Source: a bacterium (GTDB lineage Bacteria > Patescibacteriota > Minisyncoccia > JACQLN01). Taken from it: 64,000 bases of DNA. Below the pieces are notes generated by a model that was given only the letters and a program-made list of their open reading frames with translations, did not search any database and was not told where the DNA came from. The position numbers and the translations under genes were made by a program. The DNA is taken from the NCBI GenBank assembly GCA_030697795.1, contig JAUYOV010000007.1, positions 73,810-137,809 on the forward strand, given 5' to 3'. Shown here piece by piece: positions 2,426 to 50,859 of this stretch; within the stretch, counting starts at the first letter, position 1; each line of letters begins with the position of its first letter.

Positions 2426-3157
2426 ATGGCAGGCGAGCGAAGACCCAGACGAGAAGAGTTTAAATCTACGCCTTCTCAACCCGTAACCGTAACAGACGTT
2501 CGGCTTGAACAAGTTGGGCGTTCTGGAGACAGGTTAAAAGGACGTATCGCGGCCACCGCGAAGAAGGGTGGCCAGCCATGGTCTGGAGCGGATATAAGTT
2601 TCAAAGTCGGCGGAGTGCAGACGCCAAACTCACCATTGCAAAGTGGTGATGATGGTACTGCCAACGACGATTTTGATATTCCGCTTGATCCTGCCACAAG
2701 CAGGGTTCTCATTGAGGCTTGGTTTACAGGATCAAATCCAGCAAGAAAGTTTCTGGATATTGCCACAGCAACGAAACCTTCAGCACCAAAGAAAATAGAT
2801 AAGCTGGCGGTTAATGCTACGGGCAATAAGAATGGTCAGTGGGTTGTGTCTGTTATGGCCTCAACTCAAGACAACCAACCCGTTGAAGGAGTTGAAGTAA
2901 TTTTTCTTTACAATGGTGAATCGAAACCTGAAACTCTGACTAAAGGCGTGGCCTCGCATACAATCTTGGTAACAGGAAAATCTTGCGAGGTAGTTGTGCA
3001 AGCACCGGGCATAGAGCCAAAAACTCTGCGCCTGGCGGGACCAAAAGAAAAAATTAAAGTCCCGCCTGTTCCAGAAGAAGTAAAAACATGGTGGCAGAAA
3101 ACCAAAGCCGCGTGGAACATGGCAGCTGAAGACTCAAAAAAAGAAAAGGAGAGATAA
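2426..3157 (+). CDS. Hypothetical protein, first gene of GC-rich 3-gene operon
   Basis: 243 aa, no TM. Strong RBS taaggagg 6 nt upstream. Local GC about 50% versus about 35% for surroundings. Confidence 0.5.
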   Translation: MAGERRPRREEFKSTPSQPVTVTDVRLEQVGRSGDRLKGRIAATAKKGGQPWSGADISFKVGGVQTPNSPLQSGDDGTANDDFDIPLDPATSRVLIEAWFTGSNPARKFLDIATATKPSAPKKIDKLAVNATGNKNGQWVVSVMASTQDNQPVEGVEVIFLYNGESKPETLTKGVASHTILVTGKSCEVVVQAPGIEPKTLRLAGPKEKIKVPPVPEEVKTWWQKTKAAWNMAAEDSKKEKER

Positions 3158-3158
3158 A

Positions 3159-3689
3159 ATGTTTAGATTCGTTTACCTTCTGCGTCGGAGCAACAACTTC
3201 CGACTGGTAATGTTGTGGCTGTTGGTTGTGATTCATTGGATCATCAACCATACAATCCTTTCCACTACCGCATCAAAGTTTTCTCACCTTTCGGATATAC
3301 GGCAACGCCATATGAATTTTTATGATATTGGCGATGCCAAAACCGATAATGAAATCGCTGATCTGGGGTCACAGTTTCCTTGGACAGAGCTCAAAGCAAA
3401 CTGGCTCCACACCTCGGAACAAATCTGGTTGCTCCTGCTGATAGGGGCGATTATATATATACCTATCGCCTTATGTGAAGAATGGGGCCGAGCATGGACA
3501 GTTGCCCGCGCTAAAAAAGAAGCATGGGTGAATTTACCGGATGATCCACTTCCAGCAATTACTGGAACAATAACTACCGCAGTAACTCCCAGACATAACC
3601 AGATACTCAAACAAGCCTATATTTTTACTAGAGAGTTCGTTACAGCTCTTATAGCCGAACTCCTTGGAGAAAGGATGATGATACGATGA
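3159..3689 (+). CDS. Hypothetical membrane protein (2 predicted TM)
   Basis: 176 aa. Start overlaps previous stop (taaAATG); translationally coupled. GC-rich. Confidence 0.45.
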   Translation: MFRFVYLLRRSNNFRLVMLWLLVVIHWIINHTILSTTASKFSHLSDIRQRHMNFYDIGDAKTDNEIADLGSQFPWTELKANWLHTSEQIWLLLLIGAIIYIPIALCEEWGRAWTVARAKKEAWVNLPDDPLPAITGTITTAVTPRHNQILKQAYIFTREFVTALIAELLGERMMIR

Positions 3690-5068
3690 CGACGAAACCT
3701 TGGATGATTGTTTGCGGTCTAGCCATAATAGCGTTCTTCAAGTTCGCGGGCTGGATTGGTAGCTGGAGTATTGGTTTAGGTATTATTGCCATTGTTCTCG
3801 CAGTTGTGGTTTTACAGAACGTGGCATCAGCTCAACTAGGAACATTCAGCAAGATTTTTTTGTGGATGTTCGGAATAGCTGTGGTTGTTCCCGGTTTATA
3901 TAACGCAATTCTCGGTGAAGCTCCGCTAACAAGCGAAGCCATAGAAATGCGCAAACAAGAAGCCGATGTTAGTACAGGCCAAAGAATCCGCCCGCCTATG
4001 CTTTATGGTGTGGAAGGAATTTTGAGCGCTGCCAACGAACTAGACGACGAGATTGGCAAGACTTTGGGCAGAAAAGCAAAAAATCTGGTTGATCAATACT
4101 CGCAAGCCACTGGATCAAATACCGAAATTATCCAAAGAGAATTATTGGTGCTAACCGAGGAAATCAACCAGCACAAAAAATACCTAGAACAGATAAGATT
4201 AAAGACTACCGGTGACCAAGTAAGCTTTACAGGTTTTATAAGTGACCTACAAAAATCGTCCTTGCGGATGGTTATGTGGATCATCTGCTTTATCGGCATA
4301 GCCGTTCTCATAGCCTCCCCATGCTTCGCAAGAGAGTGGAAAAAACTCCCCAAAGGCATAGGCTTATCGCTGGCAATTTTTGGAGGAGTATTCTTGCTAG
4401 ACAGTATCGTCTATGCCGAAGGTACTGTTGGTTCGCCAAATGTGCCCAGTATAAACATGCCGAACCTAGAAGGCCAGGCGTTGTTCTGGATCACAGTTGC
4501 TGTAGTGGTCGGCTTTATAATCGTAAGTATAGCAACCAAAAAAGCCCGATGGGCCTTTATCGGAATCACCATTGGCATAGCTGTGATCGCCGCTACCCAT
4601 TTTTCGGGTTGGTATTACGGCGGTGGGTATGCTGCCGAAGTAGCCGCTCATAACAGGTTGGTGGCTAGTGTTCGAAATGTTGAAAAACGTAAGGAATCTT
4701 TAAACCCTCCGCCGAGTCAACGTGGGCGCTATAATAATCCTGTGCTAAAAGTGCAGGGTCTCGCCCAGAAAGTTACAATAAACATGGACGAGGTTCATTG
4801 GTCTCGACCAATCCAGTGGAGCAGGGATTACAATGTCATCTGGGAAATGCCGGGCTGGTATGAAATAATGCTTCTACCCACCGAGGATAGGATTATAAAT
4901 CGTAATGACGGCACCCTTAGTTCTGGTTTTATCACCTATATTCAAAAAATAGGTCCCGTCATTAGCTATCCCAATAGTATGGAGTTTCGGCAACCGGGCG
5001 TAGTTAAGTCGTTCATAATGCGCGGTGCGCCTGGCACCGGCACGGTGACAGTTTATGACAACTTCTAA
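3686..5068 (+). CDS. Hypothetical polytopic membrane protein with coiled-coil and C-terminal soluble domain
   Basis: 460 aa. ATGA overlap with upstream gene. Hydrophobic segments at N-terminus and mid-protein. GC-rich. Confidence 0.5.
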   Translation: MTTKPWMIVCGLAIIAFFKFAGWIGSWSIGLGIIAIVLAVVVLQNVASAQLGTFSKIFLWMFGIAVVVPGLYNAILGEAPLTSEAIEMRKQEADVSTGQRIRPPMLYGVEGILSAANELDDEIGKTLGRKAKNLVDQYSQATGSNTEIIQRELLVLTEEINQHKKYLEQIRLKTTGDQVSFTGFISDLQKSSLRMVMWIICFIGIAVLIASPCFAREWKKLPKGIGLSLAIFGGVFLLDSIVYAEGTVGSPNVPSINMPNLEGQALFWITVAVVVGFIIVSIATKKARWAFIGITIGIAVIAATHFSGWYYGGGYAAEVAAHNRLVASVRNVEKRKESLNPPPSQRGRYNNPVLKVQGLAQKVTINMDEVHWSRPIQWSRDYNVIWEMPGWYEIMLLPTEDRIINRNDGTLSSGFITYIQKIGPVISYPNSMEFRQPGVVKSFIMRGAPGTGTVTVYDNF

Positions 5069-5091
5069 GTTCTTTATTTTGTACACTCATC

Positions 5092-5128
5092 CCCCGAGAC
5101 GCAACGCGTCTCGGGGCTTTTTATTTTT
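5092..5128 (+). terminator. Rho-independent terminator of GC-rich operon
   Basis: ccccgagacgcaacgcgtctcgggg perfect hairpin + ctttttatttttct. Confidence 0.7.
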
Positions 5129-5155
5129 CTAAACACAAATGTATAATAATAGTTA

Positions 5156-5548
5156 ATGGAAAAAGATTTTGACAAATGGAACATTAAGAAAAAATCAGTC
5201 CACTATCACGGAGCTTCCTTATACTGTCATCCGAGAGAGGTCTGGTGGTGTTCCCTTGGTGTTAATGTTGGTTTTGAGCAGGATGGCACGGGTGAAAATT
5301 TCGATCGGCCAGTTGTAGTTATTCGCGGATTTAACGAATATATATTTTTTGGTGTAGCTCTTATTGGTAAAAATAAAAAAGGGAAATATTATTTTCCTGT
5401 TGGAAAAATTGAAGAAAGAGAAGCATCAGCAGTGCTTTCTCAAGTTAGAATCATCGATACTAAAAGGCTAATAAGGAAAATAACTACACTTGATGAGGAA
5501 CTATTTATAAAGTTAAATAACTCTCTCAAAGAGATACTTTTCGGCTAA
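5156..5548 (+). CDS. MazF/PemK/EndoA-family endoribonuclease toxin (no adjacent antitoxin seen)
   Basis: FEQDGTGENFDRPVVVIRGFN...SQVRIIDTKRLIRKITTLDEELFIKLNNSLKEIL parallels B. subtilis EndoA (SEQGGVRPVLVI...EQIRTIDKQRLTDKITHLDDEMM). Confidence 0.6.
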   Translation: MEKDFDKWNIKKKSVHYHGASLYCHPREVWWCSLGVNVGFEQDGTGENFDRPVVVIRGFNEYIFFGVALIGKNKKGKYYFPVGKIEEREASAVLSQVRIIDTKRLIRKITTLDEELFIKLNNSLKEILFG

Positions 5549-5765
5549 AAATAGTTTACCTCCGCTTGCGCGGGGGCGAGGCCGAAGCCCTTTATAAACT
5601 GATTCTAACAAGCTATGTAAAACCAGTCAAGGCTATTGCTGGCAAACCAAAATATCATATAATAAATTAAACAGTTCTTTGTTTTTCTGTTCCGAAGGAA
5701 TAACCTTTAAAACCAGAAGGTCATTCCTTCGGGAAATACTGCTCTTTAAAAATTAGGAGGCATAA

Positions 5766-6248
5766 ATGGATAAGCCCGCTTTAGCTGGCACGGCTGGATT
5801 GCTGGACCCTGTGTTGATAAGTTTAGCCCGCGAAATTGCCAAAATAATTCCTGCTAACAGTTTGTTGCGTTCAAGATTTATGGAATCTTTTATGGGCGCT
5901 GTTCGCGGTTTTTTAGAAGCGCGCACGGAACAACTCCCCGCAGTACCTGCGGTAGTTTCGGAAAAAGCCCTAGACGTTTGGGGATTTGTATCGGCTTTTT
6001 TAGCCAACAGCAAAAAATCTCTCCCAGAAACTGACCCCGAAACTATAATGCTTGCCGCCATAGCCGAAAGATTGCAAAAAGCGGAAGATCCCAAAAAAGA
6101 AGCCGAGAAAATAAAAGAAGAATTAAGGCTAGTTAAAGAAATAATGGACCAGGCACGCCCAGAAGAAGAATCCGAGGATTCGGCTGTGTTACAAGTAATA
6201 AACAAAAAACTTAGAAAAATCCGCCAAGATTTGCAAAAAAGGAGATAA
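5766..6248 (+). CDS. Hypothetical protein
   Basis: 160 aa. RBS aggagg at 5753-5758. Overlapping antisense ORF 5753-6349 judged spurious. Confidence 0.45.
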   Translation: MDKPALAGTAGLLDPVLISLAREIAKIIPANSLLRSRFMESFMGAVRGFLEARTEQLPAVPAVVSEKALDVWGFVSAFLANSKKSLPETDPETIMLAAIAERLQKAEDPKKEAEKIKEELRLVKEIMDQARPEEESEDSAVLQVINKKLRKIRQDLQKRR

Positions 6249-6251
6249 ATC

Positions 6252-7103
6252 ATGGCCACAAAAACGGCGTCATTCGCAGAAACTATAGAAATTTTATGGG
6301 ATATACTTGGCCTTAAAAAAGATGAGGCTTTAGCTAAGATAAAAAGCATAGGCCTTTCATATACAAAAACTCTTCTTTTGATTTTAGCTCTATGGGCTGG
6401 ATCTACTTTTTTCCTGATTTATTTGAAAGCTCTAACCGGAATAAAGTTTTTTGCTTTTTTGGCAGCCCTAGTTTCTTTTGTGTTCGCAGTAGCTATGAGA
6501 ATTTTATGGCTACCTATATCCACATGCCTTAGCATGATGGCACAAGAAACACTAAACCCCGCCAAAGCCAGCGAAGACTATATGAAAAGATCTGCAATGT
6601 TTGTTCTGGCGGGTCTTTCTGCATCTCTTTATGCTATGAATAACCCAATAGAAAACAACACAGATCTTCTTATGGGTTTAGCCGTAGCATTCATTGCGCT
6701 TTTGTTGCTAATTTATATTGCCGGTACTGTTGTTCCAATAAATGTATACGCGATTGCGCTTGGTATATATATAATTTATACCACTCTTCTTTTTAGGACT
6801 GATAAGCCGATTGACTATCTCCTAAGCGGATGCAATCAGCAAGTAACTTACTCCATCTACCAAGGCAAAACATACGGATCAAGCGAAGAGATAACGGTTT
6901 ATAATAAACCAGGAGAATTTTCTAGTGTAATTACTTTATCTGGAGTCTATAAACCAAGGTTCGTGGGTTCGGCAGAACTTCTGCCAGCTGGTTCAAATAC
7001 GGCTGTAAAAATAAAATCTGGCGAAAGATTCAATCTTGATTTCAATACATTCCAAGTCCGTAGCCAACTTGACTGGATAACATTTGTTCCTGCAAACAAA
7101 TAA
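6252..7103 (+). CDS. Hypothetical integral membrane protein
   Basis: 283 aa, multiple hydrophobic helices. 3 nt after upstream stop. Confidence 0.5.
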   Translation: MATKTASFAETIEILWDILGLKKDEALAKIKSIGLSYTKTLLLILALWAGSTFFLIYLKALTGIKFFAFLAALVSFVFAVAMRILWLPISTCLSMMAQETLNPAKASEDYMKRSAMFVLAGLSASLYAMNNPIENNTDLLMGLAVAFIALLLLIYIAGTVVPINVYAIALGIYIIYTTLLFRTDKPIDYLLSGCNQQVTYSIYQGKTYGSSEEITVYNKPGEFSSVITLSGVYKPRFVGSAELLPAGSNTAVKIKSGERFNLDFNTFQVRSQLDWITFVPANK

Positions 7104-7152
7104 CCTGTGCCTCCGAAATTTATCCCGCATATAAATTTATGTGCGAAAACCA

Positions 7153-7182
7153 AAACACTCCGACATATATCGGAGTGTTTTT
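7153..7182. terminator. Bidirectional terminator
   Basis: aaacactccgacatatatcggagtgttt hairpin with T-runs on both strands, between convergent genes. Confidence 0.55.
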
Positions 7183-7219: not shown

Positions 7220-7588
7220 CTACCCTAAGAAACTCCTTGCAAAACTAACTATAGAATAAGAAAGTATAACCACAACTATACCAATCACACCATAAAGAAG
7301 CATCTTTTTGGCCTTTTCAACATTCTTCTCGTCCATACCAGCTGTGATATATAAATAGCCCGCCCAAACAATCATAACCACAGCTATTATGGCCACAATT
7401 CCTATAATATAATTAACCACGATTGTTATGGTATCTGTCAGACGCTCTTTAGTAAAGCTTTCTACACCCACTATCTCTGGCTGTATATCTCCATCCTGTG
7501 CTCCAACAACCGCATAACTAAAGGCGAATAAGAAAACCGAGAGTAAACCTACAGAAATCAACTTATTCAAATTTATACTTTTAAACAT
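7220..7588 (-). CDS. VirB2/TrbC-like pilin-family small secreted membrane protein (paralog 1)
   Basis: 122 aa. Signal peptide, then hydrophobic helix - loop (AGMDEKNVEKAKKML) - hydrophobic helix, the VirB2/TrbC helix-loop-helix topology. Same motif in 7746-8120, 8101-9117 and 48880-49722. Confidence 0.5.
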   Translation of the reverse strand: MFKSINLNKLISVGLLSVFLFAFSYAVVGAQDGDIQPEIVGVESFTKERLTDTITIVVNYIIGIVAIIAVVMIVWAGYLYITAGMDEKNVEKAKKMLLYGVIGIVVVILSYSIVSFARSFLG

Positions 7589-7745
7589 TTTTAAATTTTA
7601 GAGAATTTTTTATTTAATTAAATAACAAGAAACGACTTTATAGCATCATTCTATCACATAGACATAATACAAAACAACAAGCCTGTGGATATTACTGCGT
7701 TAGGAATGACAGCCCTTCCAAAAAGGGCGGTCCTTCCTGAATACT

Positions 7746-8120
7746 CTACTTCAAAAAGCTTTCCACAAACACAACCGCCGATTTTGAAAGTATAAGCACT
7801 ATTACACCGATAACAATCCATAACAGCATTTGCCTAGCTTTTTTAACTTGTTCCGGCTTATCACCGCCCGTTATAAATAAAAACCCAGCGTAGACTGTCA
7901 TTATAACTGCTATGGGACCCGCCAAATATAGAAGAAAGTTTACAATTCTATCAACCAAAACTGTTATATCAGCATTATTTCCTAGGGGATTACATATAAC
8001 ACCATCGCAAGCAGGCGCAGGCGCTTGAGCTAGGGAAATTAAAGGAAAAATAAATAAAGCTAGCAAATAAAGAATTTTTTTCATATTTTTATATGTTAAA
8101 TTAATTACAAGTAAAAACAC
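7746..8120 (-). CDS. VirB2/TrbC-like pilin-family protein (paralog 2)
   Basis: 124 aa. Signal peptide (LISLAQA), CxxxxC, helix-GGDKPEQVKKARQML-helix. Confidence 0.5.
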   Translation of the reverse strand: MFLLVINLTYKNMKKILYLLALFIFPLISLAQAPAPACDGVICNPLGNNADITVLVDRIVNFLLYLAGPIAVIMTVYAGFLFITGGDKPEQVKKARQMLLWIVIGVIVLILSKSAVVFVESFLK

Positions 8121-9117
8121 TTAGCCTATTTTTATCTTTTTCTAAATTAGATTTAAGTTCAAAATGCCAAGGTTCTTTGTTGTAAACGCAAAAACCGTTA
8201 ACTTTCATTACTTGTATAACTCTATCTTGACAGCATTTAGATCCACTCTCATTATAACCCCAAACATCTAAAGCCCTACCTGTAGTATGGCGGCAGTTTT
8301 GACCATCCACGCTTCCATTGCCATCAGTGTCTTTAGGAATGCAGGTTATAGCATGTCCTGGTATTGGATCACATTTAACAGCTTCGGGATCTTTGCAATT
8401 TTCTTTAACAAGCTCTTCTTGCCTATCTAAACTTCTAAAACCAGACGCAACTTTTAAATCTACTAGATTTAATTTAGCATCTACTACTGCTCCTCTTAGA
8501 TTGCTAAGAACGTTTCTGCCTATATTATCCAAATCTACACCTGGATTTGTTTTTATTTCCACAGCAATACCTTCATTAGTATCGCCTAAATCGATAACCT
8601 CCTCCTGTCCAGACACAATTTCCGGAGCTGGTTCTTCTTCGGCTAATAAAATTTCTTCCTTTATTTCAAACGAAAAACTTCCGTTTTGCAGATATTTGCC
8701 TGTAACATCATTGATTGTTCCTCCTGTGCACTGAATATCAAACTGGCCATTTTTAAAACTATATCCAGCCACGCTATTTTCGCCGGCAAAAAATCTAACC
8801 ACAAAAGAAGCTAATATATAAGAAGAATAAACAATAGCTATGCCAATTAAAGTGGCGGTTATCATTTTTCTGCCTTTTTTAACTTGGTCGGGCTTGTCGC
8901 CTGCGGTTAAAATTGTAAAACCGCTCCAAATAATCATACCGGTGGCCAATATCGGCACCAGCGTCCACACCACAAGATTAAAAACATTTTGCACCAAATC
9001 AAAAAGACTGCAGAGGGAACAGTCTATGCCGGTACAGGGCACAAGCCCTTGAGCATAAGCAGACAGTGAGATTGTAACAATTACCGCTAAAAAAATAGCA
9101 ACTTTAATAATTTTCAT
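8101..9117 (-). CDS. Fusion protein: VirB2/TrbC-like pilin N-terminal domain + M15 (VanY-like D-Ala-D-Ala carboxypeptidase) peptidoglycan hydrolase domain
   Basis: N-term: signal peptide, CxxxxC, helix-AGDKPDQVKKGRKMI-helix. C-term: SGFRSLDRQEEL...GHAI...HTTGRALDVWG...EPWHFE, the Zn ligands/motifs of peptidase M15. Overlaps upstream gene by 20 nt. Confidence 0.6.
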   Translation of the reverse strand: MKIIKVAIFLAVIVTISLSAYAQGLVPCTGIDCSLCSLFDLVQNVFNLVVWTLVPILATGMIIWSGFTILTAGDKPDQVKKGRKMITATLIGIAIVYSSYILASFVVRFFAGENSVAGYSFKNGQFDIQCTGGTINDVTGKYLQNGSFSFEIKEEILLAEEEPAPEIVSGQEEVIDLGDTNEGIAVEIKTNPGVDLDNIGRNVLSNLRGAVVDAKLNLVDLKVASGFRSLDRQEELVKENCKDPEAVKCDPIPGHAITCIPKDTDGNGSVDGQNCRHTTGRALDVWGYNESGSKCCQDRVIQVMKVNGFCVYNKEPWHFELKSNLEKDKNRLSVFTCN

Positions 9118-9336: not shown

Positions 9337-10629
9337 TTATCTAAGTAAATTTGTTACTTCCGCTACTCCCTCCTTTAAGGCTTCTTTAGCCGAGGACTGG
9401 CTTAGGGCCACAGAATTTATCATCCGTTCAAATATTTTCTTAACCTCGGCGTCATCCGGTTGCGCCCAACTGGCGGCCGTTAAAATTTGTTTGGCAAAAA
9501 CATTTAAAGCCGCGTCCGAGGCGGTATAAGAAATTAAATCGCGCCTAGCCGGCGGCAAATGCGAAACAGCAATATAACTGCCCTCGGCGTTTTTGGTTGA
9601 AACAAAAAATAAAAACTTCCAAGCGGCATCTTTTTTAGCACTGGCGCCCGTGACCGCGCCGGCTTGATAAGAAGCAAAATTAATATCTAAATAAGAACTA
9701 TCTTTTTGCGAATCTTTAATCTGGGGCGCAGGCGCTACGCCTAAATTATTAACTGCGAAAGCAACTTGTTTTAAATCCTTGGCATAGCCTAAATACATTG
9801 CGGTTTTTCCCGTCTTAAAAGCTTCTAAAGCTTGGGGCATTCTAGCGTTCCAAGTATAAACGGGTTTAGAACTTACGGCAAAACTGGTATAAAAATTTAA
9901 AGCCGATTCGCCTGGGTTAAAAGCCTTGCCTTGCGAGGAGATAGAAGCGTCAAAAGTTGCGCGCTGGCCGTCTTTACTTAGCATAGGCGCGCCGGTTTGG
10001 AGCATTAAAAGAGAAAGAATATCGCTGGCATAATTAACATTAGCCACCGTGCCTAAAGCCGCGCCCGATCTAACAAAATCGCCCGAACTATCTTTTTGGG
10101 TTAGCTGTTTTACAGCCTCGTTAAATTCGTCCCAAGTTTTGGGCGGATTTATTAGGCCAGCATTATTAAAAAGCGCTTTATTGTAATAAAGGCCGATAGT
10201 ATCTATATAAAAAGGTACAGCATAAACTCTGTTAGCTCTAACTAAATCGCTAAAAGCCACATCGGCAAAAGTATCTTTAAAAATTTGCGCGGTCATCAAA
10301 CTGCCGGGCATAGGCGATAATTTATTTAAGTGCTTGTTTAGCCAAGTATTGTTTATGGCTACAATATCTGGGCCCGTGCCCGAAGCTAGAGAATTTACAA
10401 AATCTTTTTCGTATGAAGAAACATTTTTTTGAACATATTTAATAGTAACGTTGGGATTGGCGGTTTGATAAGCAGAAATTATAGGCGTCCAGTAACTGGC
10501 CGGATCGGTGCCCCAAAATTCTAAAGAAACTTTATCGCCTGCCCCCGGCTTTTTACCAAACAAAAAAGCTGAAACTGCCAAAAGCACTAGAATACCGATT
10601 ATTGAAAATATAATTATTTTGTAACGCAT
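9337..10629 (-). CDS. ABC transporter extracellular solute-binding protein (family 1, sugar-type), no adjacent permease
   Basis: 430 aa. N-terminal TM/signal. GPDIVAINNTWLNK...YAVPFYIDTIGLYYNKALF...PKTWDEF is typical of MalE-like SBPs. Confidence 0.75.
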   Translation of the reverse strand: MRYKIIIFSIIGILVLLAVSAFLFGKKPGAGDKVSLEFWGTDPASYWTPIISAYQTANPNVTIKYVQKNVSSYEKDFVNSLASGTGPDIVAINNTWLNKHLNKLSPMPGSLMTAQIFKDTFADVAFSDLVRANRVYAVPFYIDTIGLYYNKALFNNAGLINPPKTWDEFNEAVKQLTQKDSSGDFVRSGAALGTVANVNYASDILSLLMLQTGAPMLSKDGQRATFDASISSQGKAFNPGESALNFYTSFAVSSKPVYTWNARMPQALEAFKTGKTAMYLGYAKDLKQVAFAVNNLGVAPAPQIKDSQKDSSYLDINFASYQAGAVTGASAKKDAAWKFLFFVSTKNAEGSYIAVSHLPPARRDLISYTASDAALNVFAKQILTAASWAQPDDAEVKKIFERMINSVALSQSSAKEALKEGVAEVTNLLR

Positions 10630-38508: not shown

Positions 38509-38511
38509 CTA

Positions 38512-43391: not shown

Positions 43392-43400
43392 AATAAAAAT

Positions 43401-44159: not shown

Positions 44160-44519
44160 ATGAACCAAATTACAAACAAGAATAATTACGACCTAGAAGA
44201 AAGGACGTTAAAATTTGCCCAAAGAGTAAATGAATATGTCCGTAAGTTATCAAGGACAATAACTAACATAGAGAATGGCAAACAATTAGTGAGATCAGGT
44301 GGATCAGTAGGAGCAAACTATATAGAAGCTAACGAATCCCTTGGTAGAAAAGACTTTATGATGAGAATTAAGATATCCAAAAAAGAAACAAAAGAAAGTA
44401 GATACTGGCTAATACTAACAGAGCCGAATAAAGACAACCTACTTGAAAAAGAAAGTTTGATTAAGGAATCTACGGAGCTTATGAAAATATTTGGTTCAAT
44501 CCTAGAAAAATCAAAATAG
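44160..44519 (+). CDS. Four-helix-bundle protein (family often found in 23S rRNA intervening sequences)
   Basis: 119 aa. ...TLKFAQRVNEYVRKLSRTITNIENGKQLVRSGGSVGANYIEANESLGRKDFMMRIKISKKETKESRYWLILTE matches the four-helix-bundle (TIGR02436-type) signature (QLxRS..SIGANI.EA...S.KDF...I..KE..ET.YWL). Confidence 0.7.
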   Translation: MNQITNKNNYDLEERTLKFAQRVNEYVRKLSRTITNIENGKQLVRSGGSVGANYIEANESLGRKDFMMRIKISKKETKESRYWLILTEPNKDNLLEKESLIKESTELMKIFGSILEKSK

Positions 44520-44991: not shown

Positions 44992-45660
44992 ATGGCAAAT
45001 ACTTCTTCAACCCACCAACTTATAGAAACCAAAGAAATTAAAGATGGTCTTGTTGTTTTAAAAAATGGGGGATTAAGAGCTATTTTGATGGTATCTTCCA
45101 TAAACTTTGCTTTAAAATCCAGCGAAGAACAAGAAGCCATAATCGACCGCTTTCAGGGTTTTATAAATTCCATAGATTTTCCTGTTCAAATTTTGGTTCA
45201 ATCCAGAAAACTGGATATTTCTGAATATTTAAAATTTCTAAACGAAAGAATCGGCATACAAACCAACGAGCTCTTAAAAATACAGACTTCTGAATATATT
45301 AATTTTATACAAGAATTAATTAAGCTAACCAATGTTATGTCTAAGTTCTTTTATGTGATAATTCCCCTAAGTACGGTGGCCGTTCTAGCAACAGGGTTTT
45401 TTTCTAAGTTTTTTTCTAAAAACAAAAAAGGCGTTCAAGATCAAAAAGACTTAAACTTTGAAACACAAAAAAATACAATTCAACAAAGAGTAGACCAAGT
45501 TACCAGTTTGTTAAGTTCTATGGGTTTAAAAGCGATACCCTTAGAAAAAGAAGCTTTAATCGAGCTTTTGTATACATCGTATAACCCCGGCAGCGAAGTT
45601 AAGCAAAAGAATATGGAGGCCTTAATTGCCACAGGGGATGAAGCTAAAAAATCAGGATAA
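44992..45660 (+). CDS. virB4: VirB4/TrbE/PrgJ-like ATPase, N-terminal fragment (gene interrupted at A6 run)
   Basis: 222 aa. ...IKDGLVVLKNGGLRAILMVSSINFALKSSEEQEAIIDRFQGFINSIDFPVQILVQSRKLDISEYL is the typical VirB4 N-terminal domain. Confidence 0.75.
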   Translation: MANTSSTHQLIETKEIKDGLVVLKNGGLRAILMVSSINFALKSSEEQEAIIDRFQGFINSIDFPVQILVQSRKLDISEYLKFLNERIGIQTNELLKIQTSEYINFIQELIKLTNVMSKFFYVIIPLSTVAVLATGFFSKFFSKNKKGVQDQKDLNFETQKNTIQQRVDQVTSLLSSMGLKAIPLEKEALIELLYTSYNPGSEVKQKNMEALIATGDEAKKSG

Positions 45661-45665
45661 AATAT

Positions 45666-47426
45666 ATGGAACCGAAAAACCAACAAATCGCCTCGGCCGG
45701 CACCCTAGAAGATCTTTTAGCCCCGCCGGCTTTACAGGTCAATCCTTCTAATTTGCAGATAGGCGAGAAATTTTCTAGAACAATATTTGTGGCTAATTAC
45801 CCTAGATTTTTGAGCGTGGGCTGGTTTTCGCCTATTATTAACTTAGATAAAATTTTTGATGTTTCTTTATTTATTCAACCCTCCGAAACTGGTCCTGTTT
45901 TAAAAAAACTAACCAAAAAAACAGCGCAGATCGGCGCGCAGATGTCGGAAAAAGAAGAGGGGGGTTTTATACGCGATCCCATGCTAGAAACAGCTTACCA
46001 AGATTTAGAATCTTTGCGCGATAAACTGCAACAAGGCACTGAAAGGTTTTTTCGGGCCGGCTTATATCTTACTTTTTATGCTAGTTCCGTAAAAGAACTG
46101 GATGATGTTGAAAGCAGAGTAAATACGATATTAGAATCAAAATTAATATATTCTAAAGTTGCGGTGTTCCAGCAACAAGAAGGCTATACCTCTACCCTGC
46201 CTTTAAATTTAGATAAGCTTCAGGTTTATAATAGCTTAAACACTGGCCCGCTTTCTTCTTTCTTTCCTTTTGTTTCAGCCGATCTTACCTCCAACAAAGG
46301 TGTGCTTTATGGCATAAACAGGCACAATAACAGCCTTATACTTTTTGATAGATTCTCTTTAGAAAACGCCAACACGGTTGTTTTTGCTAAATCCGGTTCG
46401 GGCAAAAGCTATACTGTTAAATTAGAGGTTTTACGTTCCTTAATGCTAGGCACCGATGTAATAATTATAGACCCAGAAAGCGAGTATAAATACTTAAACG
46501 ATGTAGTGGGCGGAACTTTTGTAAATATTTCTTTAACTTCTGCTAACCATATAAATCCGTTTGATTTAACTATACCCAGCGAAGATGAAAGCCCAGCCGA
46601 AGTTTTAAAAGCTAATATTATAGAGCTGACCGGCTTATTAAAAGTAATGTTGGGCCAGTTAACGCCCGAAGAAGATTCAATTATAGACAAAGCCTTAACC
46701 GAAACCTATGCTTCGCGCGATATCAGCATAAATTCGGATTGGCGGGGCAAACAGGTACCTTTAATGGGCGACCTGCATACCGTATTAAAAAACATGCAGG
46801 GCGCGGAAAAATTAGCCATTCGCATAGAAAAATATGTGACAGGCACATTCTCTGGCTTTTTAAATCAACCCACCAATGTGGCCTTAAACAATAACTTAGT
46901 TGTTTTTTCTATAAGAGATCTGGAACCAGAACTTCGCCCAGTGGCTATGTATATTTTATTGCACTATGTTTGGAACTTAATAAGAGCGCAAAGAAAGAAA
47001 AGAATAATGGTGGTGGACGAGGCCTGGTGGATGATGCAACATCAAGAAGCCGGCGCGTTTTTATTTAGCATTGCCAAAAGATGCCGTAAATATTATTTGG
47101 GGCTTACCACTATAACCCAAGACGTGGAAGATTTTATGAAATCGCAATACGGCAAGCCCATTGTAACCAATTCCGCCCTGCAAATATTGCTAAAGCAATC
47201 GCCGGCGGCCATAGACACGGTGGCTCAAACATTTAATTTAACCGATGAAGAAAAGTTTTTACTTTTAGAGTCCAGCGTGGGCGAAGGCATATTTTTAGCC
47301 GGTTTAAAGCGCGCGGCTATAAAAGTGGTGGCTTCTTATACCGAAGATCAAGTTATTACATCCGACCCAGCGCAATTATTGGAAATAGAAGCGGCTAAGA
47401 AAGAACTAGCCGAAGCACAGAAATGA
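45666..47426 (+). CDS. virB4: VirB4/TrbE/PrgJ-like ATPase, C-terminal ATPase fragment
   Basis: 586 aa. Walker A FAKSGSGKS, Walker B/DEAW (IMVVDEAWWMM), and the conserved motifs of T4SS VirB4 ATPases. Confidence 0.85.
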   Translation: MEPKNQQIASAGTLEDLLAPPALQVNPSNLQIGEKFSRTIFVANYPRFLSVGWFSPIINLDKIFDVSLFIQPSETGPVLKKLTKKTAQIGAQMSEKEEGGFIRDPMLETAYQDLESLRDKLQQGTERFFRAGLYLTFYASSVKELDDVESRVNTILESKLIYSKVAVFQQQEGYTSTLPLNLDKLQVYNSLNTGPLSSFFPFVSADLTSNKGVLYGINRHNNSLILFDRFSLENANTVVFAKSGSGKSYTVKLEVLRSLMLGTDVIIIDPESEYKYLNDVVGGTFVNISLTSANHINPFDLTIPSEDESPAEVLKANIIELTGLLKVMLGQLTPEEDSIIDKALTETYASRDISINSDWRGKQVPLMGDLHTVLKNMQGAEKLAIRIEKYVTGTFSGFLNQPTNVALNNNLVVFSIRDLEPELRPVAMYILLHYVWNLIRAQRKKRIMVVDEAWWMMQHQEAGAFLFSIAKRCRKYYLGLTTITQDVEDFMKSQYGKPIVTNSALQILLKQSPAAIDTVAQTFNLTDEEKFLLLESSVGEGIFLAGLKRAAIKVVASYTEDQVITSDPAQLLEIEAAKKELAEAQK

Positions 47427-47944: not shown

Positions 47945-48781
47945 ATGAAATTAAAACATACAAAACTATTTACGATTCTAGTTATAACTATTTCTATAAT
48001 AACAGTGCCTATTTTTTCTTTGGCTCAAGAAAATCTAGATCAAGTTAGCGATACAGATATTGAGCAGGTAGAAAATTTAATAAACTCTACAATAGAAACA
48101 GCTCTTAAGGAAGAGCGAGCAGAAGGCAACGACTTTAATTTAGATATAGTTTGGAAAGCCAATACTTTATTGCCTTACGATTATAAAGGTAAAGCCTGGC
48201 CCAGCTCTTTATCGTCTATCGTTTTTTACGCTATGGCCGACGTGCCCAACCCCGATAGTTTAGTTTATACCTGGTTAATAGACGATATTTCTTCTAACAA
48301 AGAGGGTCCCGAACTTCAAGGCCGGGGTAAAAGCACCTTTAACTGGTTTACATTCCAAACTCCAGAGTTTACACACGAGTTAAGGGTTTTTGCCCAAGAC
48401 AACGATGGGCGCAAGGGTAGTGCTTCTTTAAATATTAAAACAGTAAGCCCAGAAATTAATTTTAGTATAATCAACAACAATATTTTTAATAATTCAATTT
48501 TTGGTTCATTAAAACTCCAACCGGGTAGCAGTACTAATATATTGGTTCGCCCCTTTTACTTTAATTTATTTAATCTGGATGGTTTAGATTTTATATGGAA
48601 GTTAAACGGCAAAGCCGATAAAAATTCTGGCCCCAGAAAAGATATTCTGCCTTTGAACATTTCCTCTTCAGCCCTACCGGGCGCTTATTCTAATTTACGC
48701 CTAGAATTAAAAAATAATAAGCAAAAAAATAATATTTTTGACAGTGCTAATGCCACAATCAATATAAATATAATTAAATGA
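47945..48781 (+). CDS. Hypothetical secreted protein
   Basis: 278 aa. Signal peptide LFTILVITISIITVPIFSLAQ. Asn-rich. Confidence 0.45.
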   Translation: MKLKHTKLFTILVITISIITVPIFSLAQENLDQVSDTDIEQVENLINSTIETALKEERAEGNDFNLDIVWKANTLLPYDYKGKAWPSSLSSIVFYAMADVPNPDSLVYTWLIDDISSNKEGPELQGRGKSTFNWFTFQTPEFTHELRVFAQDNDGRKGSASLNIKTVSPEINFSIINNNIFNNSIFGSLKLQPGSSTNILVRPFYFNLFNLDGLDFIWKLNGKADKNSGPRKDILPLNISSSALPGAYSNLRLELKNNKQKNNIFDSANATININIIK

Positions 48782-48785
48782 TAAA

Positions 48786-48879
48786 TAAATCCGAAGCACG
48801 AAATCCGAAGCACGAAACAAATCTCAAATTCAAAATTTTAAATTACAAATTTTGGGTATTAAGATTTGGATATTGGAAT
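48786..48879. repeat. Inverted-repeat intergenic element, CGAAAT/GCACGAA-unit family (copy 2)
   Basis: aaatccgaagcacgaaatccgaagcacgaaacaaatctcaaattcaaaat ... attttgggtattaagatttggatattggaatttgtttg. Confidence 0.6.
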
Positions 48880-49722
48880 TTGTTTGTAATTTGTTGCTTG
48901 GGATTTGTAATTTTGTCGTCTTCGTCTTCGGCGCTGGAGGTTTCTTTTCCCACAGTTCAAGGCGCGGAAGTGGGCGACTCTATGGGGCCGGCTGAATGGA
49001 TAAAATATATTTTTCTTTTGGCCCAAGCTCTGGTGGGCCTCGCCATAATATACGCCTTTGTTAGAGCGGGCTTATTATGGATGACGGGCGGCGACAATCA
49101 AACCAGAATAGGCGAGGCTAAAAAGTGGATCACCGGCGCTATAACAGGACTCGTTATACTTTTAGGCTCTTATTTATTTTTAAAAACTATAAACCCGCAA
49201 CTGGTTAACATTAAAAACCCGGGCGTAAACTTTGGCACCGACGCACCCAGTGGTATATTAGATTTTTGGAATAAATTGTTTTTTAAAAAACATGGCGTGG
49301 GAGAATCTTGTGGGTCTAGTTTTGATTGCCAAGGCCTTCTTGAGTGCGTGAGAGACCCTAAAAACCCCAGAGCATCTAGTGGTGTATGCACCAACACAAG
49401 CGAGTTATTTTTAGGATATGAAGCTGGTCATGCATGCGGAAAAGATTCTGAATGTGGTGATGATTTAACTTGTGACGACGAAAAAAAAGTTTGTGTCGCT
49501 GGAACAAAAACAGCTGGGGGATCAATATGCGGACCAGGAAATCAGTGTTCTAGTGAACAAAGATGTTTTAAAACATCTTCTGGCGAATTAGCTGAAAACA
49601 TACCTGGCGAGTGTAGTTCTTACAAAGCGCTAGGCGAAGATTGTAGAACAGATATCGCCAATGAATGCCGTGGTATTGGAACAGAATGCGACCTAACAAC
49701 TAAAAAGTGTATAAAAAAATAA
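48880..49722 (+). CDS. VirB2/TrbC-like pilin-family N-terminal domain fused to a C-terminal domain of four Cys-rich repeats
   Basis: Probable TTG start at 48880 (signal-like LFVICCLGFVILSSSSSA). Helix-MTGGDNQTRIGEAKKWI-helix as in the 7220/7746/8101 paralogs. C-terminus has four repeats of C-x-C-type modules (CGSSFDCQGLLEC; CGKDSECGDDLTC; CGPGNQCSSEQRC; CRTDIANECRGIGTEC). The track ORF starts at 48778 inside the repeat. Confidence 0.5.
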   Translation: MFVICCLGFVILSSSSSALEVSFPTVQGAEVGDSMGPAEWIKYIFLLAQALVGLAIIYAFVRAGLLWMTGGDNQTRIGEAKKWITGAITGLVILLGSYLFLKTINPQLVNIKNPGVNFGTDAPSGILDFWNKLFFKKHGVGESCGSSFDCQGLLECVRDPKNPRASSGVCTNTSELFLGYEAGHACGKDSECGDDLTCDDEKKVCVAGTKTAGGSICGPGNQCSSEQRCFKTSSGELAENIPGECSSYKALGEDCRTDIANECRGIGTECDLTTKKCIKK

Positions 49723-50859
49723 ATGAGTCAAAAAGGTAAAAAACTTCTAATTATTTTATCGGTAATTTTAGGCTTAACTTTAATAAGTTTGGGTATATAT
49801 TATTTTTTCTTTAAAAAAACCGTTGAAGCACCGGCAACTGTAACAGATGAAGAATTACTAGGCGGAGAAGTAACTCCGAGTGCCAAAGAAAGGTTAATTC
49901 CCATAACCGAAGAGGCTGTTTTAGGCGCGGGCTTAAACATAATCGACCAAGAAGCTGGGGTAAGTAAAATTGTTTACGCGGCTTGGGACGGCAGTATTAA
50001 CCAAATAGATTTAAACGGCGCGGGTAAGAACAAAATTGGCCTAGTGGCTGTAGACAGAATCGGTGAGGTTAATGTTTCAGAATCCGGAGAGCTTTTGTCT
50101 TTTAAATATAGTTTAGCTTCGGGCGCCAATAGATTTATAATTTATAATGTAACCGACAAAACCCTAAAAACCCTGTCTCAAGAAACAGAGGATGTTTCTT
50201 TAAGTAATAGCAATAAAGAAGCAGTTATTGTTTATTCCGATAGAAATGGCAAAAAAATAGCTATAAGTTATGACGATTTTTCAAAAAATAGGGATATTAT
50301 TCCAACCAAAATACCCGATATTAAAATAGATTGGTTTAACAGCGATAACATTGCCCTAACCACAAGACCGTCCGGCGTGGCCCAAGGCATTTTTTATGTG
50401 TTAAATATTAAAACTAAAAAAAACACCCGTGTATTGGGCGGGGAATACGGTTTAACTACTAATTTTTCACCCAGTGGTAAAAAAGTTTTAGTTTCCAGAA
50501 CAAATTCCGATGGGCGCAATTTAAAACTTTCTAGTATTAACCTAGACAAAAAAACAGAAAGAAATATCAGCCTGTTTACACTGCCCGAAAAATGTTCGTG
50601 GGGCCAAGATGAAAGAATTCTATTTTGTTCTGTTTTTAAAGTTAACGACCCAGATATTTTTGTAATGCCCGACGATTATTACAAAAGACGCGTGCGCTCC
50701 AACGGCGAAGAAATTGTGAGAATAAACACCGAAACCGGCCAAATCCAAAAAGTTATAGACGGGTCTTTTGATGCTTCAAATTTGTTTTTAGTGCCAGACG
50801 AGAGCTACCTTTTCTTTATAAATAAGATAGATGGACGTCTATATCGTTTGACGCTCTAA
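49723..50859 (+). CDS. Membrane-anchored TolB-like (PD40) beta-propeller repeat protein
   Basis: 378 aa. N-terminal TM. Repeated ...SPSGKKVLVSRTNSDGRNLKL... / ...IVYSDRNGKKIAISYDD... blocks characteristic of PD40/WD40-like propellers. Confidence 0.5.
   Translation: MSQKGKKLLIILSVILGLTLISLGIYYFFFKKTVEAPATVTDEELLGGEVTPSAKERLIPITEEAVLGAGLNIIDQEAGVSKIVYAAWDGSINQIDLNGAGKNKIGLVAVDRIGEVNVSESGELLSFKYSLASGANRFIIYNVTDKTLKTLSQETEDVSLSNSNKEAVIVYSDRNGKKIAISYDDFSKNRDIIPTKIPDIKIDWFNSDNIALTTRPSGVAQGIFYVLNIKTKKNTRVLGGEYGLTTNFSPSGKKVLVSRTNSDGRNLKLSSINLDKKTERNISLFTLPEKCSWGQDERILFCSVFKVNDPDIFVMPDDYYKRRVRSNGEEIVRINTETGQIQKVIDGSFDASNLFLVPDESYLFFINKIDGRLYRLTL

What the first reader, a model, noticed from the sequence alone, without database searches (positions are those of the whole stretch)
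7220..9117. Tandem array of three VirB2/TrbC-like pilin-family genes, 30 kb away from the T4SS cluster, the third fused to an M15 peptidoglycan peptidase
Three consecutive minus-strand genes share the same N-terminal module: signal peptide, often CxxxxC, hydrophobic helix, loop AG(M/G)D(K/E)xxVxKA(K/R)xML, hydrophobic helix. The third (338 aa) continues into a domain with the His/Asp Zn-ligand motifs of VanY-type M15 peptidases (HTTGRALDV, EPWHFE). A fourth member (48880-49722) carries four Cys-rich repeats instead. A conserved pilin/VirB2-like 'delivery' domain with interchangeable C-terminal modules is reminiscent of polymorphic-toxin or effector logic. A wall-cutting enzyme on the pilin scaffold would also suit a pilus that has to cross a peptidoglycan layer.
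Basis: partly seen in the sequence, partly recalled or inferred. Interest (0 to 1): 0.75.

Follow-up and report, generated by a model that had tools for sequence, protein, structure and literature searches.

The report
Pilin-anchored cell-wall peptidase beside pilin genes
An ultrasmall (Patescibacteria) bacterium encodes three secretion-system pilin genes in a row, one fused to a zinc cell-wall-cutting enzyme; this fusion is conserved and apparently undescribed, and it suggests how these bacteria place wall-cutting enzymes at their secretion machine.

Summary
Genes at 7220-7588, 7746-8084 and 8101-9117 (minus strand) all pass Pfam's threshold for T4SS_pilin. The two short ones also pass TrbC/VirB2. 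The 338-aa protein ends in an intact M15/LAS zinc peptidase, closest to phage L-Ala-D-Glu endolysins. The window is a Patescibacteria chromosome near oriC. Tandem VirB2-like pilin arrays in this phylum are already published.

The fusion appears to be undescribed, and it is not a one-off. An exhaustive search with the peptidase half found 365 cluster representatives. Of the 154 proteins examined, 132 carry the pilin module upstream, and the catalytic residues are invariant in 120 full-length members. In other Patescibacteria, neighbouring genes fuse the same pilin module to M23, NlpC/P60 or lysozyme-like domains. The fusion lies at the end of a VirB4 operon in two loci. More often it sits beside a TolB-like propeller and a DsbA gene.

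Best reading: a membrane-anchored peptidoglycan hydrolase that does the job of VirB1, with a VirB2-type pilin as its anchor. Whether it enters a pilus, and whose wall it cuts, is untested. VirB4 lies within 10 kb in only 2 of 15 well-flanked loci. I rate it a new variant of a known kind, of moderate interest.

The parts
8101..9117 (-). Pilin-M15 fusion gene (338 aa), first gene of the array
   Evidence: PF18895 36.9 bits and VanY 26.3 bits, both above cut-off. Identical to an NCBI MAG protein named 'D-alanyl-D-alanine carboxypeptidase family protein'.
9049..9117 (-). Sec-type signal peptide, residues 1-23 (MKIIKVAIFLAVIVTISLSAYA|QG)
   Evidence: Hydrophobic segment 1-26 followed by an AYA-Q site, read from the sequence. 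Cleavage is inferred.
8788..9006 (-). Pilin hairpin, residues about 38-110: two hydrophobic helices joined by the basic loop GDKPDQVKKGRK (net +3)
   Evidence: PF18895 match to residues 38-106. AF2 helices 33-71 and 76-110. Hydropathy and loop charge.
8548..8787 (-). Linker, residues 111-190, with a conserved F-x-N-G-x-F...C beta-hairpin followed by an acidic low-complexity stretch
   Evidence: Conserved in the close subfamily. pLDDT below 50. Function unknown.
8104..8547 (-). M15/LAS zinc peptidase domain, residues about 191-338. Motifs SGFRS..Q (R228, Q233), H277-x6-D284 and E315-x-x-H318; eight Cys in this domain
   Evidence: VanY hit. pLDDT 72-93. Foldseek to Ply500 at E 2.7e-6, then LysB4, ChiX, LdcB and VanY. 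PDB profile search: LysB4 2e-7. R228, Q233, H277, D284, E315 and H318 are invariant in 120 homologues.
7746..8084 (-). Short pilin 2 (112 aa from ATG 8084)
   Evidence: PF18895 44.0 bits and PF04956 33.6 bits, both above cut-off. Start position read.
7220..7588 (-). Short pilin 1 (122 aa)
   Evidence: PF18895 51.6 bits and PF04956 35.4 bits. NF045849 40.8 bits against a cut-off of 40. AF2 helical hairpin, pLDDT 84-90 over residues 47-121.
7146..7180 (-). Terminator-like hairpin (ACACTCCGA-TATATG-TCGGAGTGT followed by TTTGGTTTT) between the array and the convergent gene 6252-7103
   Evidence: Read directly from the sequence. The consensus scan did not list it.
48778..49722 (+). Fourth pilin-module protein, carrying four 4-Cys repeats at its C-terminus, inside the VirB4 cluster (start 48778 or 48880)
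   Evidence: PF18895 25.5 or 26.7 bits. External pilin HMM E 1.4e-21. Cys pattern.
49723..50859 (+). Membrane-anchored TolB/PD40-like beta-propeller. Its homologues are the commonest neighbour of pilin-M15 fusions in other Patescibacteria
   Evidence: phmmer hits next to fusions in many loci. PD40 in 8 of 14 members; TolB chains at E about 7e-4 by profile. Within 3 kb of the fusion in 11 of 15 well-flanked loci.
44992..47426 (+). TrsD-like gene (44992-45660) and VirB4-like ATPase (45666-47426), the core of the T4SS cluster
   Evidence: TraG P-loop, AAA_10 and DUF87. NCBIfam VirB4_plasma and TrsD matches.
9337..10629 (-). TM-anchored SBP_bac_1 solute-binding protein, always directly upstream of the fusion in the close subfamily. 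Syntenic neighbour; role unknown
   Evidence: Pfam 112.8 bits. Synteny in L001-L009, L052 and L061.
2426..7103 (+). Convergent block of unannotated membrane proteins (243, 176, 460, 160 and 283 aa), kept next to the array in related genomes. A MazF gene at 5156-5548 is inserted here
   Evidence: phmmer synteny in L001, L004, L006 and L008. No Pfam or NCBIfam family.

Best explanation
The 338-aa protein is a membrane-anchored, extracytoplasmic peptidoglycan peptidase that belongs to the Patescibacterial type IV secretion (T4SS) apparatus. It is a functional counterpart of VirB1, and its anchor is a complete VirB2-type pilin module.

Proposed sequence of events:
1. Sec export and signal-peptide cleavage after AYA (inferred).
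2. The two hydrophobic helices insert as a hairpin, with the basic loop in the cytoplasm. The C-terminal M15 domain therefore lies outside the membrane. This topology is inferred from hydropathy, loop charge and the conserved cysteines.
3. The M15/LAS domain has all zinc ligands and the catalytic Glu (shown). It cuts stem peptides of peptidoglycan, probably as an endolysin-like L-Ala-D-Glu endopeptidase (inferred from its closest structural relatives).
4. Because the anchor is homologous to the two short pilins encoded downstream, the enzyme gathers with the pilin pool and the T4SS platform. Wall cutting is thereby confined to the place where the pilus or channel must cross the wall (inferred).

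Other Patescibacteria build the same device with M23, NlpC/P60 and lysozyme-like domains. Together these make a set of separate pilin-anchored wall hydrolases, in place of the multi-domain VirB1 of Gram-positive conjugation systems.
For: - Pilin family membership of all three genes and the Mycoplasma ICE pilin-like model.
- M15 identity by motifs, Pfam, PDB profile search (LysB4 2e-7, Ply500 6e-4) and fold (Ply500 at E 2.7e-6). A PHROG endolysin family also matches.
- The fusion is ancient and under selection. The search found 365 representatives. Of the 154 proteins examined, 132 have the pilin module upstream of M15. PF18895 is found in 99 of 120 by Pfam. R228, Q233, H277, D284, E315 and H318 are invariant.
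- Parallel fusions of the same module to NlpC/P60, M23 and SLT_3 occur in neighbouring genes.
- The fusion is the last gene of VirB4 operons in L070 and L044, and lies 7 kb from VirB4 in L027.
- Its commonest neighbour, the TolB-like propeller, sits in the window's own VirB4 cluster.
- An adjacent DsbA fits an exported Cys-rich domain.
- Precedent: in Southlakia epibionticum the essential gene next to virB4, SEML1_0007, ends in a Hedgehog/DD-peptidase (LAS) domain (PMC10633639 Table S2).
- All known Gram-positive VirB1 homologues are membrane-anchored with extracellular catalytic domains (PMC12857230).
- No PG hydrolase is recognisable inside the window's VirB4 cluster.
Against: - In the window the array is about 36 kb from VirB4 and lies among housekeeping genes.
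- Only 2 of 15 loci with at least 8 kb on both sides have VirB4 within 10 kb.
- The fusion's own module does not reach the TrbC/VirB2 threshold (16.1 against 27.9 bits).
- Structure and PDB sequence searches do not link the module to solved VirB2 or TraA pilins.
- hhalign against an A. tumefaciens VirB2 sequence recalled from memory is weak (probability 7%).
- No experiment shows that PF18895 proteins form a pilus.
- Bond specificity is unknown, and so is whether the enzyme cuts its own wall or the host's.
Confidence: 0.6

Rival explanations
1. Enzyme-armed pilus. The pilin module is a working polymerisation unit. The T4SS extracts the fusion from the membrane and builds it into or onto the pilus as a minor subunit, so the M15 domain is carried outward to digest the wall of the host bacterium on which the epibiont lives.
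For: - The module is a full-length mature pilin and is co-transcribed with two short pilins.
- Several different hydrolase classes share the same module, sometimes within one locus.
- Patescibacteria are epibionts whose T4SS and pilin array are essential for growth on the host (PMC10633639, PMC12857230).
- In solved conjugative pili the pilin termini face the outside of the filament (my own knowledge, not tested here).
- L-Ala-D-Glu is a near-universal bond, which would suit varied hosts.
Against: - A 25-kDa domain on each subunit is sterically hard to fit in a VirB2-type filament.
- No pilus has yet been seen for these systems.
- The linker is about 80 residues and of unknown structure.
- Nothing here separates this reading from simple co-localisation in the membrane.
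Confidence: 0.2
2. Housekeeping wall enzyme. The hairpin is only a membrane anchor that happens to descend from a pilin. The protein remodels the cell's own peptidoglycan (growth, division, turnover) independently of the T4SS.
For: - The array sits between gyrA, a methyltransferase and an SBP on one side and unannotated membrane genes on the other, 36 kb from VirB4.
- Most fusions elsewhere are more than 10 kb from VirB4. Some lie among purely housekeeping genes (L068, L069).
- VanY and LdcB relatives are trimming carboxypeptidases.
Against: - The sequence-level pilin homology has been kept across at least 130 clusters.
- The fusion is always next to genuine short pilins in this lineage.
- It lies inside VirB4 operons in L044 and L070.
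- Its usual partner, the propeller, is a T4SS-cluster gene in the window.
- The best sequence and fold matches are lytic endopeptidases, not carboxypeptidases.
Confidence: 0.15
3. Polymorphic-toxin or effector logic, or a non-catalytic adhesin. The pilin module is a delivery or secretion handle for interchangeable antibacterial payloads, or the M15 domain only binds peptidoglycan.
For: Variable C-terminal modules sit on one conserved N-terminal module. Inactive VirB1 homologues acting as adhesins have been proposed in some Gram-positive systems (PMC12857230).
Against: - The recognisable payloads are all wall hydrolases, not toxins.
- The gene downstream of the fusion is another pilin or radA, not a small immunity-like gene.
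- The catalytic residues are invariant, which argues against a purely binding role.
- The module stays a membrane hairpin rather than a cleavable secretion signal.
Confidence: 0.05

Closest known systems
VirB2-like pilin arrays of Patescibacteria (Southlakia epibionticum SEML1_0014-0019; 441 arrays of 2-11 genes in 383 assemblies; PMC12102498, PMC10633639)
   Same: Same Pfam families (PF18895, PF04956). Tandem, divergent paralogues (32-37% identity here; 25% average in the paper). Same phylum. T4SS cluster close to dnaA.
   Different: The published descriptions I could search treat the arrays as short pilins. None mentions a member fused to a peptidoglycan hydrolase. Here the array is about 36 kb from virB4.
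VirB1-like hydrolases of Gram-positive T4SSs (PrgK of pCF10, TraG of pIP501, Orf14 of Tn916)
   Same: Membrane-anchored proteins with extracellular peptidoglycan-degrading domains, encoded with the T4SS and thought to open the wall locally (PMC12857230).
   Different: Those use SLT, CHAP, muramidase or LytM domains on one polypeptide, with what I recall to be a simple TM anchor (my own knowledge). Here the catalytic domain is M15/LAS, the anchor is a two-helix pilin homologue, and different hydrolase classes sit on separate pilin-anchored proteins.
SEML1_0007 of Southlakia epibionticum ML1 (essential; adjacent to virB4)
   Same: A Hedgehog/DD-peptidase (LAS) domain at the C-terminus of a T4SS-locus protein in a Patescibacterium.
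   Different: It is 1113 aa with no pilin domain reported.
Phage endolysin L-Ala-D-Glu peptidases Ply500 (2vo9) and LysB4 (6akv); ChiX
   Same: Best fold and profile matches. Same Zn-ligand and catalytic motif layout.
   Different: Only 17-20% identity. No cell-wall-binding domain. This protein is membrane-tethered, carries extra disulfide-forming cysteines, and has no phage or plasmid relatives by tblastn.
VanY / LdcB (M15B) carboxypeptidases
   Same: The Pfam family that is formally matched, and the SGxRS / HxxGxAxD / ExxH motifs.
   Different: Weaker matches than the endolysin type (E 0.05 or worse by sequence). Those enzymes trim terminal residues and are not linked to secretion systems.

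Membership tests
Pfam PF18895 T4SS_pilin | HMM score at or above the gathering threshold (26.6 bits) | tested here: met
   51.6, 44.0 and 36.9 bits for the three array genes. The fourth member is borderline (26.7 or 25.5 bits), but an external-sequence HMM gives E 1.4e-21.
Pfam PF18895 T4SS_pilin | Signal peptide followed by two hydrophobic helices joined by a short loop | tested here: met
   Hydropathy and loop analysis. AF2 hairpins.
TrbC/VirB2 pilins (PF04956) | HMM score at or above the gathering threshold (27.9 bits) | tested here: inconclusive
   Met by the two short genes (35.4 and 33.6 bits). Not met by the fusion (16.1) or the fourth member (11.7).
TrbC/VirB2 pilins (PF04956) | Fold or sequence similarity to solved conjugative pilins (TraA, VirB2) | tested here: inconclusive
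   No PDB pilin found by profile. Foldseek gives no significant hit for a plain helical hairpin. hhalign against a recalled VirB2 sequence: E 0.005, probability 7%.
TrbC/VirB2 pilins (PF04956) | Encoded with VirB4 and the other mating-pair-formation genes | tested here: inconclusive
   The array is about 36 kb from VirB4 in the window, though the fourth member is inside the cluster. Fusions lie in VirB4 operons in L044 and L070, but in only 2 of 15 well-flanked loci overall.
TrbC/VirB2 pilins (PF04956) | Polymerises into an extracellular pilus | not testable with these tools
   No experimental data are available, and no multimer modelling tool was available.
M15/LAS zinc peptidases (VanY-type, PF02557) | HMM score at or above the gathering threshold (25 bits) | tested here: met
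   26.3 bits on residues 203-290. VanY or Peptidase_M15 is found in 63 and 21 of 120 homologues.
M15/LAS zinc peptidases (VanY-type, PF02557) | Zn ligands H-x6-D plus a distal H, catalytic Glu in ExxH, and a substrate-binding Arg | tested here: met
   H277, D284, H318, E315, R228 and Q233 are invariant in 120 sequences.
M15/LAS zinc peptidases (VanY-type, PF02557) | LAS (Hedgehog/DD-peptidase) fold | tested here: met
   The domain has pLDDT 72-93. Foldseek probability 1.00 to Ply500, LysB4, VanX, ChiX, LdcB and VanY.
M15/LAS zinc peptidases (VanY-type, PF02557) | Peptidase activity on peptidoglycan stem peptides, and which bond is cut | not testable with these tools
   Needs a biochemical assay.
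VirB1-like T4SS wall hydrolases (Gram-positive classes) | Membrane anchor plus an extracellular PG-degrading domain | tested here: met
   Topology inferred. The M15 domain is predicted to lie outside the membrane.
VirB1-like T4SS wall hydrolases (Gram-positive classes) | Homology to the VirB1 catalytic domains (SLT, CHAP, muramidase or LytM) | tested here: not met
   Only M15 is detected in the window protein. Sister fusions elsewhere carry SLT_3, M23 or NlpC/P60. It is therefore filed as a functional analogue, not a member.
VirB1-like T4SS wall hydrolases (Gram-positive classes) | Required for T4SS assembly or function | not testable with these tools
   Only an indirect precedent exists: SEML1_0006 and SEML1_0007 are essential in S. 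epibionticum.
Polymorphic toxin systems | Variable C-terminal toxin domain followed by a cognate immunity gene | tested here: not met
   The recognisable C-terminal modules are wall hydrolases or Cys-rich repeats. Downstream genes are pilins, radA or a propeller.

The most novel reading that the evidence does not exclude
Patescibacterial T4SS pili are enzyme-armed. Minor pilins carrying M15, M23, NlpC/P60 or lysozyme-like domains are extracted from the membrane by the VirB4 machine and built into the filament. The pilus then digests its way through the wall of the host bacterium to set up the epibiotic feeding contact. This would be a route for delivering wall hydrolases that, to my knowledge, has not been described for any secretion system.
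Probability: 0.2. Interest if true: 0.85.

Novelty: new variant of a known kind. Interest (0 to 1): 0.55.

Why it matters
The T4SS and its pilin array are essential for the only genetically tractable Patescibacterium (PMC10633639). What they do, and how a pilus-bearing T4SS crosses a monoderm wall, remains open. [quoted passage not shown]

A conserved family in which the pilin module itself carries the wall hydrolase offers a concrete answer: M15 here, and M23, NlpC/P60 or SLT elsewhere. It also supplies testable parts, namely a small soluble catalytic domain, defined catalytic residues, and recurrent partners (a TolB-like propeller and DsbA).

It further shows that automatic annotation splits these proteins into either 'carboxypeptidase' or 'pilin' and so hides the architecture.

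Tried and rejected
- Structure test of the pilin module. The AF2 model of the 122-aa pilin from a 69-sequence alignment is good (pLDDT 75.5), but Foldseek against the PDB gave no hit below E 0.9. A helical hairpin is not diagnostic.
- PDB sequence search with the pilin profile returned only chance GPCR matches.
I do not rely on it.
- The third homologous-protein search, with the broad 120-sequence profile, returned only 7 hits because of the candidate cap. It added little.
The narrower A2 and A8 worked.
- I tested whether the convergent 283-aa membrane protein (6252-7103) resembles the 278-aa protein of the VirB4 cluster. It does not.
- Pfam and NCBIfam give nothing for the convergent block or for most T4SS-cluster genes.
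- The phage-endolysin or plasmid-cargo origin is rejected. There are no tblastn matches in 50,697 phage or 72,556 plasmid records, and synteny is conserved across related chromosomes.
- No DsbA homologue was found in the window.
- Four literature searches found no description of pilin-hydrolase fusions. A fifth, for the SLT_3/PF18896 name, returned only unrelated papers. The library does not include most subscription journals.
Full report
**What is there.** Three minus-strand genes occupy 7220-9117.
- The first in transcription order (9117 to 8101) encodes 338 aa.
- The second most likely starts at ATG 8084, 18 nt after the first gene's stop, and encodes 112 aa. The listed GTG at 8120 would overlap the first gene.
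- The third (7588 to 7220) encodes 122 aa. It follows a 157-nt spacer that begins with a stable stem-loop (z = -2.9).
- A hairpin with a T-run at about 7146-7180 separates the array from the convergent gene 6252-7103 (read).

Pfam places all three genes in PF18895 T4SS_pilin, above threshold. It places the two short ones in PF04956 TrbC/VirB2 as well, also above threshold. The 122-aa protein also reaches the cut-off of NCBIfam NF045849, the Mycoplasma ICE 'pilin-like conjugal transfer protein'. Two other polytopic membrane proteins of the window do not hit PF18895, so composition alone does not explain the matches. The paralogues share 32-37% identity.

Each protein has a signal peptide, an acidic external segment (with a CxxxxC motif in two of the three), a hydrophobic helix, a short lysine-rich loop and a second hydrophobic helix. 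A fourth member with four 4-Cys repeats lies at 48778/48880-49722.

**The fused domain.** Residues about 191-338 carry the three motifs of VanY-type LAS peptidases: SGFRS..Q, H277-x6-D284 and E315-x-x-H318. VanY passes Pfam's threshold.
- The AlphaFold model is confident for this domain (pLDDT 72-93) and weak elsewhere.
- Foldseek finds the Listeria phage endolysin Ply500 first (E 2.7e-6), then LysB4, LysECD7, VanX, ChiX, LdcB and VanY.
- A profile of the C-terminal half finds LysB4 (2e-7) and Ply500 (6e-4) ahead of LdcB (0.05) among PDB sequences.
- A PHROG endolysin family also matches.

The domain is therefore an intact zinc peptidase and looks more like a lytic L-Ala-D-Glu endopeptidase than a trimming carboxypeptidase. 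Bond specificity cannot be read from sequence. Twelve cysteines, eight of them in this domain, and the hairpin topology place it outside the membrane. This placement is inferred.

**Where the window comes from.** It holds dnaA, dnaN, yidC, gyrA, a VirB4-like ATPase with a TrsD-like gene in front, and no outer-membrane T4SS parts. The identical protein is from an NCBI MAG. Relatives are labelled Patescibacteria group, Candidatus Yanofskybacteria and Parcubacteria. This matches the published picture: a Patescibacterial T4SS of monoderm type near the replication origin, with VirB2-like pilins and 441 pilin arrays of 2-11 genes in 383 assemblies. The array in Southlakia epibionticum is essential (PMC12102498; PMC10633639; PMC12857230). 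The tandem array as such is therefore already known.

**The fusion is a family.** The word-indexed search found only seven close relatives. All share the same gene order: gyrA, methyltransferase, SBP_bac_1, fusion, two or three short pilins, then a convergent block of unannotated membrane proteins.

An exhaustive HMMER search of 1.84 billion cluster representatives with the linker-plus-M15 profile gave 365 hits at E <= 1e-3 and 163 at E <= 1e-10. I examined the 150 best together with the close relatives, 154 proteins in all. Of these, 132 carry the pilin module N-terminal to the peptidase by my own HMM. Most of the rest are fragments under 250 aa. Pfam's independent model finds PF18895 in 99 of 120 full-length members. 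Across those 120, R228, Q233, H277, D284, C310, E315, H318 and E320 are invariant.

So this M15 subfamily is found almost only fused to the pilin module, and the enzyme is under purifying selection. Many members have an additional Cys-rich N-terminal extension before the hairpin.

**Other payloads and partners.** I fetched 55 metagenomic loci with a distant subfamily. Their neighbouring 'long pilins' carry NlpC/P60 (L030), Peptidase_M23 (L051, L060) or the lysozyme-like SLT_3 domain (L049, L065). The other five tested have no recognisable C-terminal family.

The commonest neighbour is a homologue of window gene 49723-50859. In the window this gene directly follows the fourth pilin in the VirB4 cluster. 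It is a TM-anchored TolB/PD40-like beta-propeller. A DsbA-like thioredoxin often lies between the propeller and the fusion.

In L070 the order is TraC/TrsD-like, VirB4, two small genes, propeller, DsbA, fusion. L044 is equivalent. In L027 a VirB4 operon converges 7 kb away.

The link to VirB4 is not general, however. Among 15 distinct loci with at least 8 kb on both sides:

| Feature near the fusion | Loci (of 15) |
|---|---|
| Propeller within 3 kb | 11 |
| DsbA within 3 kb | 8 |
| Another pilin-module gene within 3 kb | 7 |
| VirB4 within 10 kb | 2 |

**Interpretation.** The evidence best fits a pilin-anchored peptidoglycan hydrolase that works with the T4SS.
- All known Gram-positive VirB1 homologues are membrane-anchored with extracellular catalytic domains (PMC12857230).
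- In S. epibionticum the two essential genes beside virB4 encode lysozyme-like plus cysteine-peptidase domains (SEML1_0006) and a C-terminal Hedgehog/DD-peptidase, i.e. LAS, domain (SEML1_0007).
- The window's VirB4 cluster has no recognisable hydrolase of its own.

What differs here is the catalytic class (M15) and, above all, the anchor. It is a full VirB2-type pilin module, homologous to the short pilins encoded next to it. Such an anchor should partition with the pilin pool and so focus wall cutting at the assembly site. I put this at about 0.6.

A more novel version is that the module is polymerisation-competent and the enzyme rides on the pilus to attack the host's wall. Nothing here excludes this, and I give it about 0.2. 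A T4SS-independent housekeeping role remains possible (about 0.15), given how often the gene is far from virB4. Polymorphic-toxin logic or a purely adhesive role is unlikely (about 0.05): the recognisable payloads are wall hydrolases, no immunity-like gene follows, and the catalytic residues are invariant.

**Limits.**
- The relationship of the fusion's own module to classical VirB2 rests on PF18895 and on its paralogy to the two short genes. It does not itself reach the PF04956 threshold, and structural comparison is uninformative.
- No PF18895 pilus has been observed experimentally.
- The context census is a sample of loci, not a genome-wide profile.
- The literature check covers open-access papers and bioRxiv only. 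Within that library I found no description of pilin-hydrolase fusions.
- Source databases label members either 'D-alanyl-D-alanine carboxypeptidase family protein' or 'VirB2 component (pilin)'.

**Verdict.** The array is a known kind of feature. The pilin-M15 fusion, and the wider pilin-hydrolase family it reveals, is a new variant of a known kind: a T4SS wall hydrolase. Interest is moderate (0.55).

Noticed in passing
window 49723-50859 (+); homologues e.g. L049 8431-9555, L070 8036-9298, L044 4929-6179: A TM-anchored TolB/PD40-like beta-propeller is the commonest neighbour of pilin-hydrolase fusions. It lies within 3 kb in 11 of 15 well-flanked loci, often with a DsbA-like thioredoxin between it and the fusion. 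In the window it follows the fourth pilin in the VirB4 cluster. Its role is unknown.
   Followed up: partly
window 9337-10629 (-): An N-terminally anchored SBP_bac_1 solute-binding protein lies directly upstream of the fusion in every member of the close subfamily, only 8 nt away in L004 and L005. No ABC permease or ATPase genes are adjacent. It may be co-transcribed with the fusion.
   Followed up: partly
window 2426-7103 (+): A five-gene block of unannotated membrane proteins (243, 176, 460, 160 and 283 aa) converges on the pilin array. It stays next to the array in relatives whose fusion has diverged to about 35% identity. No Pfam or NCBIfam family matches.
   Followed up: partly
window 5156-5548 (+): A MazF/PemK-type toxin gene (Pfam 43.9 bits) sits inside the convergent block. 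No homologue of it appears in the gene lists of the related loci (e.g. L001). I did not look for an antitoxin partner.
   Followed up: no
window 44160-44519 (+); L044 1828-2199 (+): A '23S rRNA-intervening sequence protein' (four-helix-bundle family PF05635) gene lies inside or beside the VirB4 cluster, both in the window and in an unrelated metagenomic locus.
   Followed up: no
window 7220-7588 (-): The short pilin reaches the cut-off of NCBIfam NF045849, the Mycoplasma ICE pilin-like conjugal transfer protein. This hints that VirB2-like proteins exist in monoderm MPF-FATA systems, although the 2025 survey treats VirB2 as absent from that class.
   Followed up: no
window 7700-7745 (-): A stable stem-loop (GGAAGGACCGCCC...GGGCUGUCAUUCC) lies immediately after the stop of the second pilin, with no U-run. 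The 160-nt spacer folds with z = -2.9. It could be an mRNA-processing or mRNA-stability element that sets the ratio of fusion to short pilins.
   Followed up: partly
window 48778-49722 (+): The start of the fourth pilin is ambiguous. ATG 48778 overlaps the stop of the upstream gene by 4 nt and adds 34 residues before the signal peptide. ATG 48880 gives a normal signal peptide. Its four 4-Cys repeats match no Pfam family convincingly (EB module, E 0.03).
   Followed up: partly
L069 17184-20246: A reverse transcriptase (RVT_1), a bAvd accessory gene and a recombinase lie about 6-9 kb from a pilin-M15 fusion. The RT and bAvd pair looks like a diversity-generating retroelement. I did not identify its target.
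   Followed up: no
window 37723-44087 (+): Four consecutive genes upstream of the TrsD/VirB4 pair (261, 870, 755 and 228 aa) have no Pfam family. They have no detectable homologues in the T4SS-linked loci fetched.
   Followed up: partly
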